In this document: piece after piece, positions 54,401-58,011 of the stretch
Numbering within the stretch: position 1 is the stretch's first letter
Layout: every line of letters begins with the position of its first letter
Assembly: GCF_009914755.1 (NCBI RefSeq)
Contig: NC_060943.1
DNA: 64,000 bases
From: the human T2T-CHM13v2.0 reference genome, Homo sapiens
Strand: one strand, 5' to 3'
Notes under the pieces: generated by a model
Told to the model about the DNA's origin: nothing
Database searches by the model: none
The model's input: the letters and a program-made list of their open reading frames with translations, nothing else
Made by a program: the position numbers and the translations under genes

Positions 54401-56271
54401 CCTGAAGGGTATTTTCCAGCTTGGTTCCATTCTCCCCATCACTTTCAGGTACACCAATCAAATGTAGATTTGGTCTTTTCACACAGTCCCATATATCTTG
54501 GAGGCTTTGTTCATTTCTTTTCACTCTTTTTTCTCTAATCTTGTCTTCTCACTTTATTTCATTAAGTTGATCTTCAATCTCTGATATCCTTTCTGCTGCT
54601 TGATCAATTCAGTTATTGATACTTATGTATGCCTCATGGAGTTCTCATGCTGCGTTTTTCAGCTCCATCAGGTCATTTATGTTCTTCTCTAAAGTGGTTA
54701 TTCTAGTTAGCAATTCATTTAACCTTTTTTCAAGGTTCTTTTCTTCCTTGCATTGGGTTAGAACATGCTCCTTTAGCTCAGAGGAGTTTGTTATTACCCA
54801 CCTTCTGAGGCCTACTTCTGTCAATTCGTCAGACTCATTCTCCTAGTTTTGTTCCCTTGCTGGTGAGGAGTTGTGATTCTTTGGAACAGAAGAGGCATTC
54901 TGGTTCTTTTTGTGCTGGTTTCTCCCCATCTTTGTGGATTTATCTACCTTTGGTCTTTGATATTGGTGACCTTCAGATGGGGTCTCTGAGTGGATGTCCT
55001 TTTAGTTGATGTTGATACTATTCCTGTTTGTTAGTTTTCCTTCTAACAGTCAGGCCCCTCTGCTCCACGTCTGCTGGAGTTTGCTGGGGGTCTACTCCAG
55101 ACCCTGTTTACCTGGGTATCACCAGCAGAGACTGCAGAACAGCAAAGATTGCTGCCTGTTCCTTCCTCTGGAAGCTTCATCCCAGAGGGGCACCCGCCAG
55201 ATGCCAGCCAGAGCTCTCCTGTACGAGGTGTCTGTCGGCCCCCTACTGGGAGGTATCTCTCAGTGAGGATACATGGGGGGCCAAAGACCCACTTGAGGAG
55301 GCAGTCTGTCCTTTATCAGAGCTCAAACGCCGTGCTGGGAGATCCGCTGCTGTCTTCAGAGCTATCAGGCAGGGACGGTTAAGTCTGCTGAAGCTGCTCC
55401 CACAGCCGCCTCTTCCCCCAGGTGCTCTGTCCCAGGGAGATGGGGGTTTTATCTATAAGTCCCTGATTGGGGCTGCTGCCTTTTTTTCAGAGATGCCCAG
55501 CCTAGAGAGGAGGAATCTAGAGAGGCAGTCTGGCCGCAGTGGCCTTGCTGAGCTGTGGTGGGCTCTGCCCAGTTCAAACTTTCCGGCAGCTTTGTTTACA
55601 TTGTGAGGGTAAAACCGCCTACTCAAGCCTCAGCAATGGCGGATGCCCCTCCCCCCACCAAGCTCAAGTGTCCCAGGTCGACCTCAGACTGCTGTGCTGG
55701 CAGTGAGAATTTCAAGTCCATGGATCTTAGCTTGGTGGGCTCCGTGGGGGTGGGACCCCCCAAGCCAGACCACTTGGCTCCCTGGCTTCAGCCCCCTTTC
55801 CAGGGGAGTGAACAGTTCCGTCTTACGGGTGTTCCAGGTGCCACTGGGGTATGAAAAAAAAACTCCTGCAGCTAGCTCGGTGTCTGCCTAAACGTCCACC
55901 CAGTTTTGTGCTTGAAACCCAGGGCCCTGGTGGCATAGGCACTGGAGGGAATCTCCTGGTCTGCCGGTTGTGAAGACTGTGGGAAAAGCACAGTATCTGG
56001 GCCAGAGTGCACCGTTCCTCATGGCACAGTCCCTCACAGCTTCCCTTGGCTAGGGAGGGAAATCCCCCAACCCCTTGCACTTCCCTGGTGAGGTGACGCC
56101 CCACCCTGCTTTGGCTTGCACTCTGTAGGCTGCACCCACTATCCAACCAATTCCAGTGAGATGAAGTGGGTACCTCAGTTGGAAATGCAGAAATCACCTG
56201 CCTTCTGTGTCGATCTCGCTGGGAGCCGCAGGCCAGAGCTGTTCCTATTTGGCCATCTTGCCAGCAAATCC
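51434..56271 (-). mobile_element. L1PA (L1PA7/8-like) with 5'UTR, decayed ORF1/EN and an internal RT deletion, inserted in an Alu linker
   Basis: 5' end GCTGGCAAGATGGCCAAATAGGAACAGCT. ORF1 and ORF2 fragments appear in the ORF track (53635-53865, 52613-53401, 52030-52278, 51649-52026). TSD ctaatttttg(t/c)attttt at 51417-51433 and 56272-56288. Confidence 0.9.
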
Positions 56272-56482
56272 CTAATTTTTGCATTTTTAATGGAGATGAG
56301 GTTTCACCATGTTGGCCACCTGGTCTGGAACTCCTAACCTCAGGTGATCTGCCTGTCTTGGCCTCCCAAAGTGCTGGGATTACAGGCATGAGCCACTGCA
56401 CCCGGCCGATATATTTTTCAATATGAACTACTGATTTGCCAACTGTAGTTAATAGAAAACCTGTTTTTTAAATATCTTGTAG

Positions 56483-58011
56483 ATGTCTCTCCTACACATA
56501 TGATCAAGGAATTACCACCAAAAGAGAACAATAGCACAGGAAAAGTATTCCAAGCAGTGATGTTGGAAAGACATGAAATCCATGACATCCAAGATTTTTA
56601 CTTCAGAGAAATGCAGCAAAATATTCATGACTTTGAGTGTCAGTGTCACAATGATGAGAGAAATTACAGAGAAATACCTGCAATTAAAATTAAAAACATC
56701 ACTGGAAGAAGAGATCAAGGTGATGGAAGGAATGCAGGAAATAAGCCAGTTGAAAATCAGCTTGAACTAAGCTTTTGGTTGCATCTGGCTGAACTGCAGG
56801 GATTTCAAATTGAAAGGAAAATTTATGAATGTAATCAAATTGAGAAGTCTGTCACCCGTGGGTCCTCAGTTTCATTACTTCAAACAAATCTTCCTTGTGT
56901 CAACACCAGCATTTCTAATATATACAGGAATGATTTTATGCATCATTCATTACTCACACAAGACCAGAAAGCATACATTAGGGAAAAACCTTACAAATGT
57001 AGTGATTGTGGCAAGGCCTTTAATCAGAGGTCCAACCTTACTACACATCAGAGAATCCATACTGGACAGAAACCACATAAATGTGACATATGTGGCAAAG
57101 GTTTCAGGCGAATTGGAAACCTAGCAAGTCATCATAGAATTCATACTGGAGAGAAACCTTACAGATGTAATGAGTGTGGCAAGACCTTCAATCAGACGTT
57201 CAACCTTACTACACATCAGAGAATCCATACTGGACAGAAACCATATAAATGTGATAGATGTGGCAAAGGTTTCAGGCAAATTGGAAACCTAGCAAGTCAT
57301 CATAGAATTCATACTGGAGAGAAACCTTACAGATGTAACGAGTGTGGCAAGACCTTTAACAGGATGTTCCACCTTACTAGACATCAGAGAATCCATACTG
57401 GACAGAAACCATATAAATGTGATATATGTGGCAAAGGTTTCAGGCAAATTGCAAACCTAGCAAGTCATCATAGAATTCATACTGGAGAGAAACCTTACAA
57501 ATGTAGTGATTGTGGCAAGACCTTTAATTACAGGTCCCACCTTACAAGACATCAGAGAATCCATACTGGACAGAAACCGTATAAATGTGATACATGTGGC
57601 AAAGATTTCAGTCAAAATTCATACCTTGAAAATCATCAGAGAATTCACACTAGAGAGAAATCTTACAGATGTAATGAGTGTGGCAAGACCTTTAATAAGA
57701 TGACCAACCTTACTACACATCAGAGAATCCATACTGGACAGAAAACATATAAATGTGATATATGTGGCAAAGGTTTCAGGCAAATTGGAAACCTAGCAAG
57801 TCATCATAGAATTCATACTGGAGAGAAACCTTACAGATGTAATGAGTGTGGCAAGACCTTCAATAGGATGTTCCACCTTACTAGACATCAGAGAATCCAT
57901 ACTGGACAGAAACCATATAAATGTGATATATGTGGCAAAAGTTTCAGTCAAAATTCATACCTTGAAAATCATCAGAGAATTCACACTGGAGAGAAAACTT
58001 ACAAGTTGTAA
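56483..58011 (+). CDS. ZNF818P: Final exon: spacer + 12 intact C2H2 fingers; spliced ORF 599 aa (locus annotated as a pseudogene, from recall)
   Basis: Acceptor cttgtAG|AT GTC TCT (phase 1), in frame with ORF 56500..58011. 12 canonical fingers. TAA at 58009-58011 results from a 1-nt insertion in finger 13. Confidence 0.8.

What the first reader, a model, noticed from the sequence alone, without database searches (positions are those of the whole stretch)
55636..56502. L1 antisense promoter and ORF0-like ORF aimed at the finger exon: possible KRAB-less or ORF0-ZNF fusion isoform
Seen: the L1 5' end lies about 210 bp from the finger-exon acceptor, so its antisense direction runs into the exon. 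A 72-aa ORF at 55636-55854 (gcaATGg; MADAPPPTKLKCPRSTSDCC...SVGVGPPKP) resembles primate L1 ORF0 (MAGAPPP...SDCC...SVGVGPSEP). A donor inside it, CAG|GTGCCA (55837/8), is phase 1, as is the acceptor at 56483, so splicing would give a 576-aa ORF0 + 12-finger fusion. Donors CTG|GTGAGG (56087/8) and CCA|GTGAGA (56155/6) would give a finger-only protein from ATG 56500. Established: L1 antisense promoters drive chimeric spliced transcripts and ORF0 fusions. Inference: L1 derepression could produce a non-repressing competitor of the full KRAB-ZFP, a transposon-controlled switch inside a putative transposon repressor.
Basis: partly seen in the sequence, partly recalled or inferred. Interest (0 to 1): 0.7.

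Follow-up and report, generated by a model that had tools for sequence, protein, structure and literature searches.

The report
Old L1 antisense ORF0 facing zinc-finger exon
An old L1PA7 retrotransposon in the last intron of a decaying KRAB zinc-finger gene carries its family's usual small antisense reading frame and points at the finger exon; the layout is real but ordinary, and no spliced fusion has been seen.

Summary
This includes the 72-aa ORF, the three GT sites, the phase match, the 576-aa fusion and the 212-bp gap to the acceptor.

The element is a 5'-intact, internally deleted L1PA7 at 51434-56271 on the minus strand. It is bounded by a 17-nt target-site duplication and sits inside an older Alu.

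The ORF is inherited from the L1 family. Thirteen of the 29 closest sister copies keep ATG plus exactly 72 codons, against 0-1 of 29 for control ORFs. Only its first 44 residues align with young-L1 ORF0 (19/44 identical).

The in-frame donor is weak: 3.5 bits on a recalled matrix, below all 8 annotated donors in the window. It lies in a segment that young L1s lack. The two strong ORF0 donors of young L1s read GC here.

Two published supplements already list this L1. Pinson 2022 reports three plus-strand read pairs, one each in 3 of 8 gliomas, running from the L1 5'UTR across the unspliced acceptor. Lanciano 2024 reports 5'-end methylation from 0.98 down to 0.014 (HEK293T).

Low-level antisense or intronic RNA is therefore plausible. 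A spliced ORF0-ZNF fusion or a regulatory switch is unsupported. It is a known kind of feature, of modest interest.

The parts
51434..56271 (-). L1PA7 element, 5'-intact, with an internal deletion in ORF2 and broken ORF1/ORF2
   Evidence: A 17-nt target-site duplication bounds it. ORF1/ORF2 fragments lie on the minus strand. The 5'UTR aligns over about 870 nt at 83-89% with 29 sister copies. RepeatMasker rows in two papers name it L1PA7, 4828 bp, 8.4% divergence.
51417..51433 (.). Target-site duplication, left copy (CTAATTTTTGTATTTTT), inside an antisense Alu
   Evidence: 16/17 identical to 56272-56288
56272..56288 (.). Target-site duplication, right copy
56272..56408 (-). Other half of the Alu that the L1 split. 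It fills most of the 212 nt between the L1 5' end and the acceptor and holds a further GT site, CAG|GTGATC at 56343/4.
   Evidence: Sequence read; the Alu identity is my reading of the sequence, no repeat library was run. Donor score 7.1 bits.
55473..55688 (+). Stretch equivalent to the +400-600 antisense-promoter region of young L1s
   Evidence: 74-76% identity to four young copies over aligned bases, with 29 gap columns. The +450 and +200 antisense-promoter regions are named in Pinson 2022. Promoter activity was not tested here.
55636..55854 (+). ORF0 homologue of the L1PA7 family, 72 aa, strong start context
55835..55843 (+). d1: CAG|GTGCCA, phase 1, in-ORF, weak. It lies in a segment absent from young L1s.
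   Evidence: 3.5 bits. GT in 19 of 29 sister copies and GC in 8. Window 55767-55936 has no counterpart in four young copies.
55700..55708 (+).
   Evidence: 4.3 bits. GT in 16 of 29 sister copies.
56085..56093 (+). d2: CTG|GTGAGG, the strongest GT site between 55400 and the acceptor, downstream of the ORF stop
   Evidence: 9.3 bits. GT in 26 of 29 sister copies. Homologous to CAG|GTGAGG (11.3 bits) in four young copies.
56153..56161 (+). d3: CCA|GTGAGA
   Evidence: 5.3 bits. GT in 11 of 29 sister copies. Homologous to CTA|GTGAGA in young copies.
56458..56485 (+). Ancestral finger-exon acceptor ...tatcttgtag|ATG, phase 1
   Evidence: Aligns base for base with ZNF665's annotated finger-exon acceptor. 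Pyrimidine fraction 0.65, equal to that acceptor. Paralogue alignments start 33-43 nt upstream of it.
56483..56503 (+). 6-codon upstream ORF that starts at the first base of the exon and overlaps ATG 56500
56485..58011 (+). Finger-exon reading frame, 12 C2H2 fingers, ending at a frameshift (RefSeq LOC100419845, pseudogene)
58016..59315 (+). Decayed continuation of the finger array in other frames, running into ZNF818P
49519..49645 (+). KRAB-A exon of the host gene (LOC124904792)
   Evidence: Pfam KRAB, E 2.1e-28
50452..50583 (+). Third host exon. Its donor CAG|GTAAGA is phase 1 and in frame with the acceptor at 56483.
   Evidence: 11.0 bits. Exons 1-3 joined to the finger exon give an open 604-aa frame.
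55995..56255 (+). L1 side of published chimera ID_2634_2635 (hg19 chr19:53713745-53713999), mapped here to within about 6 nt
   Evidence: The mapping assumes the RepeatMasker L1 end at 53714016 equals window 56265-56271.
56350..56685 (+). Unique side of the same chimera (hg19 53714101-53714431). It starts in the intron and crosses the acceptor unspliced.

Best explanation
This is an ordinary old L1PA7 retrotransposon. It inserted, antisense to the host gene, into an Alu in the last intron of a chr19 KRAB zinc-finger gene. That gene has since decayed, and RefSeq now splits it into LOC124904792, LOC100419845 and ZNF818P.

The 72-aa ORF is the ORF0 homologue that the L1PA7 master element carried. 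It is kept here by descent, like in about half of the closest sister copies.

The L1 5'UTR may at times act as a weak antisense promoter, or it may simply be transcribed as host intron. Either would give rare plus-strand RNA that runs, mostly unspliced, into the finger exon. If splicing occurs, the conserved strong donor at 56087/8 is the likely one. That would give a non-fusion transcript with ORF0 as an upstream ORF. The in-frame ORF0-ZNF fusion is at most a very minor product.

Shown: the anatomy, the inheritance of the ORF, the donor ranking, the open frames, and the published read pairs and methylation values. Inferred: promoter activity, any splicing, and any protein.
For: - **Identity and boundaries.** Target-site duplication; L1PA7 label in two independent published tables; mean 85.8% identity to 29 sister 5'UTRs.
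- **Abundance of the class.** 3510 first-look candidates in the genome for 55600-55900. Criscione 2016 passages say L1HS and L1PA2-8 carry ORF0 at about 3200 loci, with 57 known exon fusions.
- **Inheritance.** ATG plus exactly 72 aa in 13 of 29 sister copies and ATG plus at least 70 aa in 20 of 29, against 0, 1 and 0 of 29 for three control ORFs.
- **Homology to young ORF0.** Same ATG and context; 19/44 identities in the N-terminal part only.
- **Donors.** d1 scores 3.5 bits against 5.7-11.4 for 8 annotated donors; d2 scores 9.3 and is the best in the region. The young-L1 ORF0 donors (8.3 and 9.1 bits) align to GC here, with GT in only 1 and 4 of 29 sister copies.
- **Host gene.** KRAB-A is intact and there are 12 fingers. 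The canonical splice gives an open 604-aa frame. The array is frameshifted after 58011.
- **Published RNA.** Three read pairs in total, in 3 of 8 gliomas and 0 of 3 control brains. They are unspliced across the acceptor, were not RT-PCR validated and match no EST.
- **No record in four other supplements searched by gene name.** These were the Criscione 2016 list of 988 transcripts, a long-read CAGE study and an epigenetic-drug study, the last two also searched by hg38 coordinate prefix. The Lanciano 2024 search hit only Table S2, so the gene is absent from that paper's chimeric-transcript table, which covers ESR1-bound L1s in MCF-7 only.
Against: - In Pinson 2022, 31 of 32 tested L1PA1-L1PA7 chimeras did start in the L1 antisense-promoter regions, and 20.6% of L1PA7 elements with a 5'UTR gave chimeras. 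This element was among the positives, so real promoter activity here is quite possible.
- The 5' end is almost unmethylated in HEK293T (0.014) and low in HEK293 (0.24) and HepG2 (0.45). No RNA data from those lines could be examined.
- A strong conserved donor (56087/8), a good ancestral acceptor 395 nt downstream and an intact 503-aa finger ORF make a spliced KRAB-less transcript mechanically easy.
- The 29 sister copies are the closest hits to an intact copy, so the retention rates are biased upward.
Confidence: 0.8

Rival explanations
1. The L1PA7 antisense promoter is a real alternative promoter for the finger exon and ZNF818P RNA in hypomethylated cells such as HEK293(T), HepG2 and some glioblastomas. 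Transcripts would splice from 56087/8 (or 56155/6) to 56483, or run on unspliced. They would yield a KRAB-less RNA that may encode the 503-aa 12-finger protein.
For: - Chimeric read pairs in 3 of 8 gliomas.
- Locus-specific hypomethylation.
- L1PA7 chimeras validated as antisense-promoter-initiated in the same study, 31 of 32 across L1PA1-7.
- Strongest donor in the region, conserved in 26 of 29 sister copies and in young L1s.
- The acceptor is the ancestral one.
- With a start near 56060, only a 6-codon upstream ORF precedes ATG 56500.
- The RefSeq ZNF818P transcript (58450-61601) lies in the same decayed array, so part of this exon is known to be transcribed (annotation given with the finding).
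Against: - Only three read pairs in total, none in controls, not validated, and unspliced over the acceptor.
- Lanciano 2024 states that hypomethylation alone is insufficient for L1 expression at most loci.
- ATG 56500 has a weak context, and with a start upstream of ORF0 it follows 6 upstream ATGs.
- No record in four searched supplements.
- The antisense-promoter-equivalent region is only 74-76% identical to young L1s.
Confidence: 0.2
2. The published plus-strand read pairs are simply host pre-mRNA. The L1 and the finger exon lie inside the long third intron of the predicted KRAB-only transcript of LOC124904792, which was unannotated in hg19 (hence 'no_gene'). Total-RNA libraries would then sample the intron, and the L1 promoter would be silent.
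For: - The RefSeq model XM_047446916.1 joins 50583 to an exon beyond 64000 (annotation given). That exon probably starts at about 64394/5 and gives a KRAB-only product (inferred).
- The libraries were Ribo-Zero total RNA.
- The read intervals are colinear with the genome and include intron.
- Pinson 2022 reports that chimera levels follow host-locus transcription.
Against: - 31 of 32 tested L1PA1-7 chimeras failed to amplify with a primer upstream of the antisense-promoter regions, so they were not read-through.
- The L1 side of this chimera starts about 270 nt inside the L1, as expected for initiation in the +450 region, although this is also compatible with read-through.
Confidence: 0.4
3. 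L1 derepression produces an ORF0-ZNF fusion or finger-only protein that competes with the full KRAB-ZFP at its targets, giving a transposon-controlled switch.
For: - The fusion frame is open (576 aa) and the ORF0 start context is strong.
- The KRAB-plus-finger product is also open (604 aa).
- The L1 5' end is variably methylated.
Against: - The in-frame donor is weak, is not the ORF0 donor of young L1s, and reads GC in 8 of 29 sister copies.
- The phase match is a 1-in-3 chance.
- RefSeq treats the finger exon as a pseudogene, and its array is frameshifted.
- No annotated transcript joins KRAB exons to this exon, so the supposed full-length partner is itself undocumented.
- No junction, peptide or target data exist in anything searched.
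Confidence: 0.02

Closest known systems
Primate L1 ORF0 (Denli et al. 2015, Cell 163:583; seen only as cited in Criscione 2016, Mendez-Dorantes and Burns 2023 and other papers; the paper itself is not held)
   Same: - Antisense strand of an L1PA 5'UTR.
- Homologous ATG with the same gcaATGg context.
- Similar length (72 against 71 aa).
- N-terminal MA.APPP...SDCCA...SVGVGP motifs shared with natural young copies.
- L1PA7 lies within the L1HS-L1PA8 range said to carry ORF0.
   Different: - Only residues 1-44 align, with a 9-residue insertion.
- The last 28 residues are encoded by a 170-nt segment absent from young L1s.
- The two strong in-ORF donors of young copies are GC here and fall after this ORF's stop.
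- The donor inside this ORF is a different, weak site.
L1 antisense-promoter chimeric transcripts (LCTs; Criscione 2016 PMC4908685, Pinson 2022 PMC9396940, Lanciano 2024 PMC10879037)
   Same: - A 5'-intact L1PA1-7 element antisense to a neighbouring exon.
- This very element is listed as chimera ID_2634_2635 in Pinson Table S2.
- ZNF genes already appear as partners in such lists: ZNF177, ZNF182 and ZNF224 in Criscione; ZNF215, ZNF227 and ZNF521 in Pinson.
   Different: - No spliced junction, EST or RT-PCR validation exists for this locus.
- The partner is a pseudogenised finger exon.
- Initiation in the L1 cannot be told from host intron transcription.
KRAB zinc-finger genes of the chr19q13.4 cluster (ZNF665, ZNF347 and ZNF415 neighbours)
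   Same: - KRAB-A exon (Pfam E 2e-28), a second KRAB-region exon, a phase-1 finger-exon acceptor homologous to ZNF665's, and 12 C2H2 fingers.
- The canonical splice is in frame.
   Different: - The array is frameshifted at about 58011 and decayed beyond.
- The nearest paralogue of the pre-finger spacer is only 73% identical.
- RefSeq annotates a KRAB-only predicted model plus two pseudogenes.

Membership tests
L1 ORF0 | Encoded on the antisense strand of the 5'UTR of a primate L1PA element (L1HS to L1PA8) | tested here: met
   The ORF lies 418-636 nt inside the 5' end of a minus-strand L1. The element is labelled L1PA7 in two published RepeatMasker-based tables.
L1 ORF0 | Start codon homologous to the ORF0 ATG of young L1s, in a strong context | tested here: met
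   The ATG column is shared with 4 young copies in the alignment. The primer OU703 site from PMC7746726 marks that ATG. G at -3 and G at +4.
L1 ORF0 | About 71-aa product homologous along its length | tested here: inconclusive
   72 aa, but BLASTP aligns only residues 1-44 (19/44 identities, E 8e-7). The C-terminal part comes from a segment absent in young L1s. No Pfam family exists for it.
L1 ORF0 | Two splice donors inside the ORF that allow exon fusions | tested here: not met
   The two best in-ORF donors of 4 young copies (8.3 and 9.1 bits) align to GC at window 55938/9 and 56023/4, after this ORF's stop. GT occurs there in 1 and 4 of 29 sister copies. The ORF holds other, weak GT sites (3.5 and 4.3 bits). 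That these two sites are Denli's SD1 and SD2 is my inference; their published positions were not seen.
L1 ORF0 | Transcribed from the L1 antisense promoter and translated | not testable with these tools
   No RNA or ribosome data are on hand. The published read pairs start downstream of the ORF.
L1 antisense-promoter chimeric transcript (LCT) | RNA joining antisense L1 5'UTR sequence to flanking unique sequence | tested here: met
   Taken from a published table, not from data analysed here. Pinson 2022 Table S2 ID_2634_2635 has 1 read pair each in GBM.7, GBM.4 and GBM.34, and 0 in 5 other gliomas and 3 control brains.
L1 antisense-promoter chimeric transcript (LCT) | Transcription start inside the L1 5'UTR (+200 or +450 regions) | not testable with these tools
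   The LCT_validated column reads FALSE for this chimera. The host gene runs on the same strand.
L1 antisense-promoter chimeric transcript (LCT) | Splicing from an L1 donor into a host exon | not testable with these tools
   The published unique-side interval crosses the acceptor unspliced. The gene is absent from the Criscione EST list and from two other supplements.
KRAB zinc-finger protein gene (host) | KRAB-A box | tested here: met
   PF01352, E 2.1e-28, 98.1 bits
KRAB zinc-finger protein gene (host) | Tandem C2H2 array in one 3' exon, in frame with the KRAB exons | tested here: met
   12 zf-C2H2 stretches. Open 604-aa frame through the join 50583^56483.
KRAB zinc-finger protein gene (host) | Intact full-length array and a documented full-length mRNA | tested here: not met
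   Frameshift at about 58011, with decayed fingers continuing in two other frames. No RefSeq transcript in the given table uses the acceptor at 56483.

The most novel reading that the evidence does not exclude
In cells where this L1PA7 5' end is unmethylated (HEK293T, HEK293, HepG2, some glioblastomas), its antisense promoter would be the main promoter of the ZNF818P and finger-exon RNA. It would splice from 56087/8 to 56483 and yield a KRAB-less 12-finger protein. This would be a transposon-driven, methylation-gated isoform of a zinc-finger gene that has otherwise lost its KRAB connection, and it could occupy the DNA targets of the ancestral repressor.
Probability: 0.06. Interest if true: 0.55.

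Novelty: new member of a known kind. Interest (0 to 1): 0.25.

Why it matters
If the antisense promoter truly drove a finger-only product here, it would be a neat case of a transposon rewiring a gene from the family that silences transposons.

As it stands, the value of the result lies elsewhere:

- **Published ORF0 fusion logic does not carry over from young L1s to L1PA7.** The strong in-ORF donors of young copies are missing family-wide, at least among the 29 copies compared.
- **The host locus may be one decayed gene.** RefSeq splits it into a KRAB-only model and two pseudogenes. Read as one gene, it still holds an open 604-aa KRAB-plus-12-finger frame.
- **The cell lines for a direct test are already known.** The element's methylation state has been measured in HEK293T, HEK293 and HepG2, where it is low.

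Tried and rejected
**Papers not held.**
- Denli 2015 by DOI.
- Speek 2001, PMC86790.
- Matlik 2006, PMC1559930.

As a result, the published positions of the ORF0 donors and of the antisense start sites were not seen. The donor positions were inferred from natural young copies instead.

**Other dead ends.**
- Full-text searches found only 2 papers for ZNF818P, both expression lists seen as search listing only. They found none for LOC100419845, LOC124904792, XM_047446916 or NR_073396.
- Supplement searches by gene name found nothing in Criscione 2016. Searches by gene name and hg38 coordinate prefix found nothing in PMC10760525 or PMC12229592.
Other catalogues, such as pan-cancer TE-chimeric lists and hESC L1 chimera lists, were not checked and may bear on the claim.
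- Pfam has no family for the 72-aa ORF or for the third host exon.
- A search for 'KRAB-less' together with 'antisense promoter' listed 10 of 80 papers. None of the 10 holds both terms.

**Considered and rejected.**
- The ORF as a chance ORF. Rejected because it is shared by sister copies while control ORFs are not.
- Donor d1 as the homologue of a young-L1 ORF0 donor, despite the similar TTCCAGGTGC string. Rejected because the alignment places it in a segment that only the old family has.
- A recent paralogue sharing the L1. Rejected because the best paralogue is 73% identical and the alignments stop 33-43 nt upstream of the acceptor.

MaxEntScan was not available. A recalled position matrix was used as a rough yardstick, calibrated on the 8 annotated donors in the window.

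
Full report
**What is in the sequence**

The window is human chr19 (T2T), as the added annotation says. The own-genome search places it at G000:C19:56234001-56298000.

On the plus strand, 55636-55854 is an ATG-initiated ORF of 72 aa, MADAPPPTKLKCPRSTSDCC...GATGV. 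It has G at -3 and G at +4.

The ORF lies on the antisense strand of an L1 that runs on the minus strand. ORF1 and ORF2 fragments are readable from about 51650 to 54550, with an internal ORF2 deletion. The antisense of the L1 5' terminus is readable up to about 56270.

A 17-nt direct repeat with 16/17 identity, CTAATTTTTG(T/C)ATTTTT, sits at 51417-51433 and 56272-56288. It is the target-site duplication, so the element is 51434-56271. It inserted into an antisense Alu whose two halves now flank it. The Alu identity is my reading; no repeat library was run.

**Which L1, and is the ORF more than chance**

The 301 nt around the ORF have at least 3510 first-look candidates in this genome. The best other copies are 87-90% identical.

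Twenty-nine sister copies align over the whole 870-nt 5'UTR piece at 83-89% identity, mean 85.8%.

Two published RepeatMasker-based tables name this exact element L1PA7:
- hg19 chr19:53709189-53714016, minus strand, 4828 bp, 8.4% divergence (Pinson 2022 Table S1).
- hg38 chr19:53205936-53210763 (Lanciano 2024 Table S2).

Among the 29 sister copies:
- 27 keep the ATG.
- 13 have ATG plus exactly 72 codons.
- 20 have ATG plus at least 70 codons.

Three other ORFs found in the window copy (82, 40 and 58 aa) are shared at exact length by 0, 1 and 0 of 29.

The ORF is thus an inherited family feature, not a chance frame of this copy. The 29 copies are the nearest hits to an intact copy, so the rates are biased upward. 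They say nothing about selection after insertion.

**Relation to ORF0**

I did not rely on a remembered ORF0 sequence. The primer OU703 from PMC7746726 covers the ORF0 ATG of L1RP. It has 1680 exact sites in the genome and 0 for the reversed control.

In the 12 loci fetched from those sites, the ORF that starts at that ATG has these lengths:
- 71 aa in 6 loci, e.g. MAGAPPPASLPPCSLISDCCASNQRDSVGVGPSEPGVGYSLVV...RCVRHPFL.
- 70 aa in 1 locus.
- 60 and 33 aa in 2 loci.
- At least 100 aa in 3 loci.

This matches the 71 aa stated in Criscione 2016 (passages).

The window ATG sits in the same alignment column, with the same gcaATGg context. BLASTP of the window ORF against one young ORF0 gives 19/44 identities, 9 gap positions and E 8e-7, for residues 1-44 only.

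The alignment shows why. Window 55710-55736 and 55767-55936 have no counterpart in four young copies. The last 28 codons and the stop of the window ORF lie in the second of these old-family-only segments.

**The splice sites**

The piece 55636-55837 is 202 nt, so the donor is phase 1. The exon frame starts at 56485, so the acceptor is phase 1. The join is an open 576-aa frame with junction ...[16 protein letters not shown].

The acceptor is the ancestral finger-exon acceptor. It aligns base for base with ZNF665's annotated one and has the same pyrimidine fraction, 0.65. Paralogue alignments begin 33-43 nt upstream of it.

It was calibrated on the 8 annotated donors in the window, which score 5.7-11.4 bits. 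Results:

| Site | Boundary | Sequence | Score (bits) |
|---|---|---|---|
| d1 | 55837/8 | CAG\|GTGCCA | 3.5 |
| extra in-ORF, phase 1 | 55702/3 | GCA\|GTGAGA | 4.3 |
| d2 | 56087/8 | CTG\|GTGAGG | 9.3 (best in region) |
| d3 | 56155/6 | CCA\|GTGAGA | 5.3 |
| in the Alu piece | 56343/4 | CAG\|GTGATC | 7.1 |

Donor d1 scores below all eight annotated donors and below 12 other GT sites in 55400-56482.

In four young copies the two best in-ORF0 donors are CAG|GTGTGG (8.3 bits) and CAG|GTGCGT (9.1 bits). They align to window 55938/9 and 56023/4. Both read GC there, and both fall after this ORF's stop. Among the 29 sister copies, GT occurs at these two places in only 1 and 4.

So the donors that make ORF0 fusions possible in young L1s are absent from this L1PA7 group. 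That these two sites are the published SD1 and SD2 is my inference; reviews say only that ORF0 holds two donors. Donor d1 is a different site, with GT in 19 and GC in 8 of 29 sister copies.

Donors d2 and d3 are homologous to CAG|GTGAGG (11.3 bits) and CTA|GTGAGA in young copies. They carry GT in 26 and 11 of 29 sister copies.

**Coding prospects of the proposed isoforms**

- With a start upstream of ORF0, a d2 or d3 transcript carries 6 ATGs before ATG 56500. One of them is the strong ORF0 ATG.
- ATG 56500 itself has a weak context (C at -3, A at +4).
- With a start near 56060, the +200-type region named by Pinson 2022, only a 6-codon upstream ORF precedes it. That ORF begins at the first exon base and overlaps ATG 56500.
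- An unspliced RNA has 13 upstream ATGs.

**The host gene**

- 49519-49645 is an intact KRAB-A exon (Pfam E 2.1e-28). The finger exon has 12 C2H2 fingers.
- Exon 1, the two KRAB-region exons and the finger exon join into an open 604-aa frame.
- The frame ends at 58011 at a frameshift. Degenerate fingers continue in two other frames to about 59300, into the RefSeq transcribed pseudogene ZNF818P.
- The intact part is largely a 168-bp two-finger unit repeated 6.6 times at 87% matches.
- The RefSeq predicted model skips this exon. Its fourth exon probably starts at window about 64394/5 and gives a KRAB-only product (inferred).
- Plus-strand host pre-mRNA would therefore contain the L1 and the finger exon as intron.

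**Published data on this very element**

*Pinson 2022* (PMC9396940; passages, Table S1 row, Table S2 header and row).
- Chimera ID_2634_2635 lies on the plus strand. Its L1 side is hg19 53713745-53713999 and its unique side is 53714101-53714431.
- It has 1 read pair each in three glioblastomas, 0 in five other gliomas and 0 in three control brains.
- It is marked 'no_gene', not RT-PCR validated, and not in the EST literature.
- I mapped it by equating the L1 end 53714016 with window 56265-56271. The L1 side is then about 55995-56255 and the unique side about 56350-56685. The RNA begins downstream of the ORF and of d1, and it crosses the acceptor unspliced.
- The same paper reports chimeras for 20.6% of L1PA7 elements with a 5'UTR.
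- It also reports that 31 of 32 tested L1PA1-7 chimeras started in the L1 antisense-promoter regions, and that chimera levels follow host-locus transcription.

*Lanciano 2024* (PMC10879037; passages and Table S2 row). The table gives the methylated-CpG fraction of this L1's 5' end:

| Cell line | Fraction |
|---|---|
| 2102Ep | 0.98 |
| IMR90 | 0.96 |
| MCF7 | 0.95 |
| BJ | 0.94 |
| MRC5 | 0.94 |
| HCT116 | 0.63 |
| HepG2 | 0.45 |
| HEK293 | 0.24 |
| HEK293T | 0.014 |

- No call was made in HeLaS3, K562 or H1.
- The paper states that hypomethylation alone is insufficient for L1 transcription at most loci.
- By my count, the L1 part of the assayed stretch (56080-56271) holds only 4 CpGs. CpG observed/expected over the 5'UTR is 0.24.

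*Other searches.* The locus is absent from the Criscione 2016 supplements and from two further supplements. Published lists already pair L1 antisense transcripts with ZNF genes.

**Verdict**

What it describes is an ordinary, family-typical L1PA7 5'UTR with its inherited ORF0 homologue. It sits, by the accident of insertion, 212 nt upstream of the old finger-exon acceptor of a decaying KRAB zinc-finger gene.

My estimates, by judgement:
- Rare plus-strand RNA from or through the L1 is documented at three read pairs. I put genuine antisense-promoter initiation at roughly even odds.
- A spliced KRAB-less transcript through the strong conserved donor at 56087/8 is mechanically easy but unseen: about 0.2.
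- The in-frame ORF0-ZNF fusion depends on a weak donor that young L1s do not have: a few percent at most as a meaningful product.
- The 'switch' is unsupported: about 0.02.

The kind of feature is well known, and this locus already sits, uncommented, in two published tables.

Noticed in passing
window 42737-42763, 49519-49645, 50452-50583, 56483-58011: Joined by their canonical phase-1 sites, these exons give an open 604-aa KRAB-plus-12-finger frame. RefSeq instead splits the locus into a KRAB-only predicted model (LOC124904792), a 'ZNF415 pseudogene' (LOC100419845) and ZNF818P. The three may be one decaying gene.
   Followed up: partly
window 56986-58093: The intact part of the finger array is a 168-bp two-finger unit repeated 6.6 times at 87% matches. 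This indicates an internal tandem amplification of finger pairs.
   Followed up: no
window 58016-59315: Degenerate zinc fingers continue in two other frames after the frameshift at about 58011. They run into the annotated start of ZNF818P (58450), so that single-exon transcript looks like the 3' part of the same terminal exon.
   Followed up: partly
window 51258-51433 and 56272-56408: The L1 inserted into an antisense Alu and split it. A 17-nt target-site duplication (16/17 identical) flanks the L1. The Alu is therefore older than the L1PA7 insertion.
   Followed up: yes
window 52030-52401 (minus strand): The L1 has an internal ORF2 deletion. One frame reads straight from the ...[11 protein letters not shown] motif into [12 protein letters not shown].... 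This explains the 4.8-kb length of an element called 'full-length' in Lanciano's table.
   Followed up: no
L049 about 594/595, i.e. window about 64394/5: This is the probable acceptor (ctttgccacag|GAATAG) of the fourth exon of XM_047446916.1. In phase 1 it adds ...GIVSTPEESPFSDVSTHRDPAYSCFPYIQTLPHILK* and gives a KRAB-only protein with no fingers. The exon start is inferred, not given in the table.
   Followed up: partly
window 55838-55839, 55939-55940, 56024-56025 and sister loci L002-L030: Several potential donor GTs in the antisense 5'UTR vary among copies as GT, GC(G) or GC(A), for example CAGGTGCCA, CAGGCGCCA and CAGGCACCA. These look like decay products of CpG sites, so donors may appear or vanish copy by copy through deamination.
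   Followed up: partly
window 56483-56503: The finger exon begins with an out-of-frame ATG (ATA in ZNF665). It opens a 6-codon upstream ORF whose stop overlaps ATG 56500, in the string ATATGA.
   Followed up: no
window about 56080-56271 (hg38 chr19:53205936-53210763): A published table shows the 5' end of this old, CpG-poor L1 almost fully unmethylated in HEK293T (0.014), against 0.94-0.98 in fibroblasts, MCF7 and 2102Ep. The cause of this locus-specific loss was not examined.
   Followed up: no
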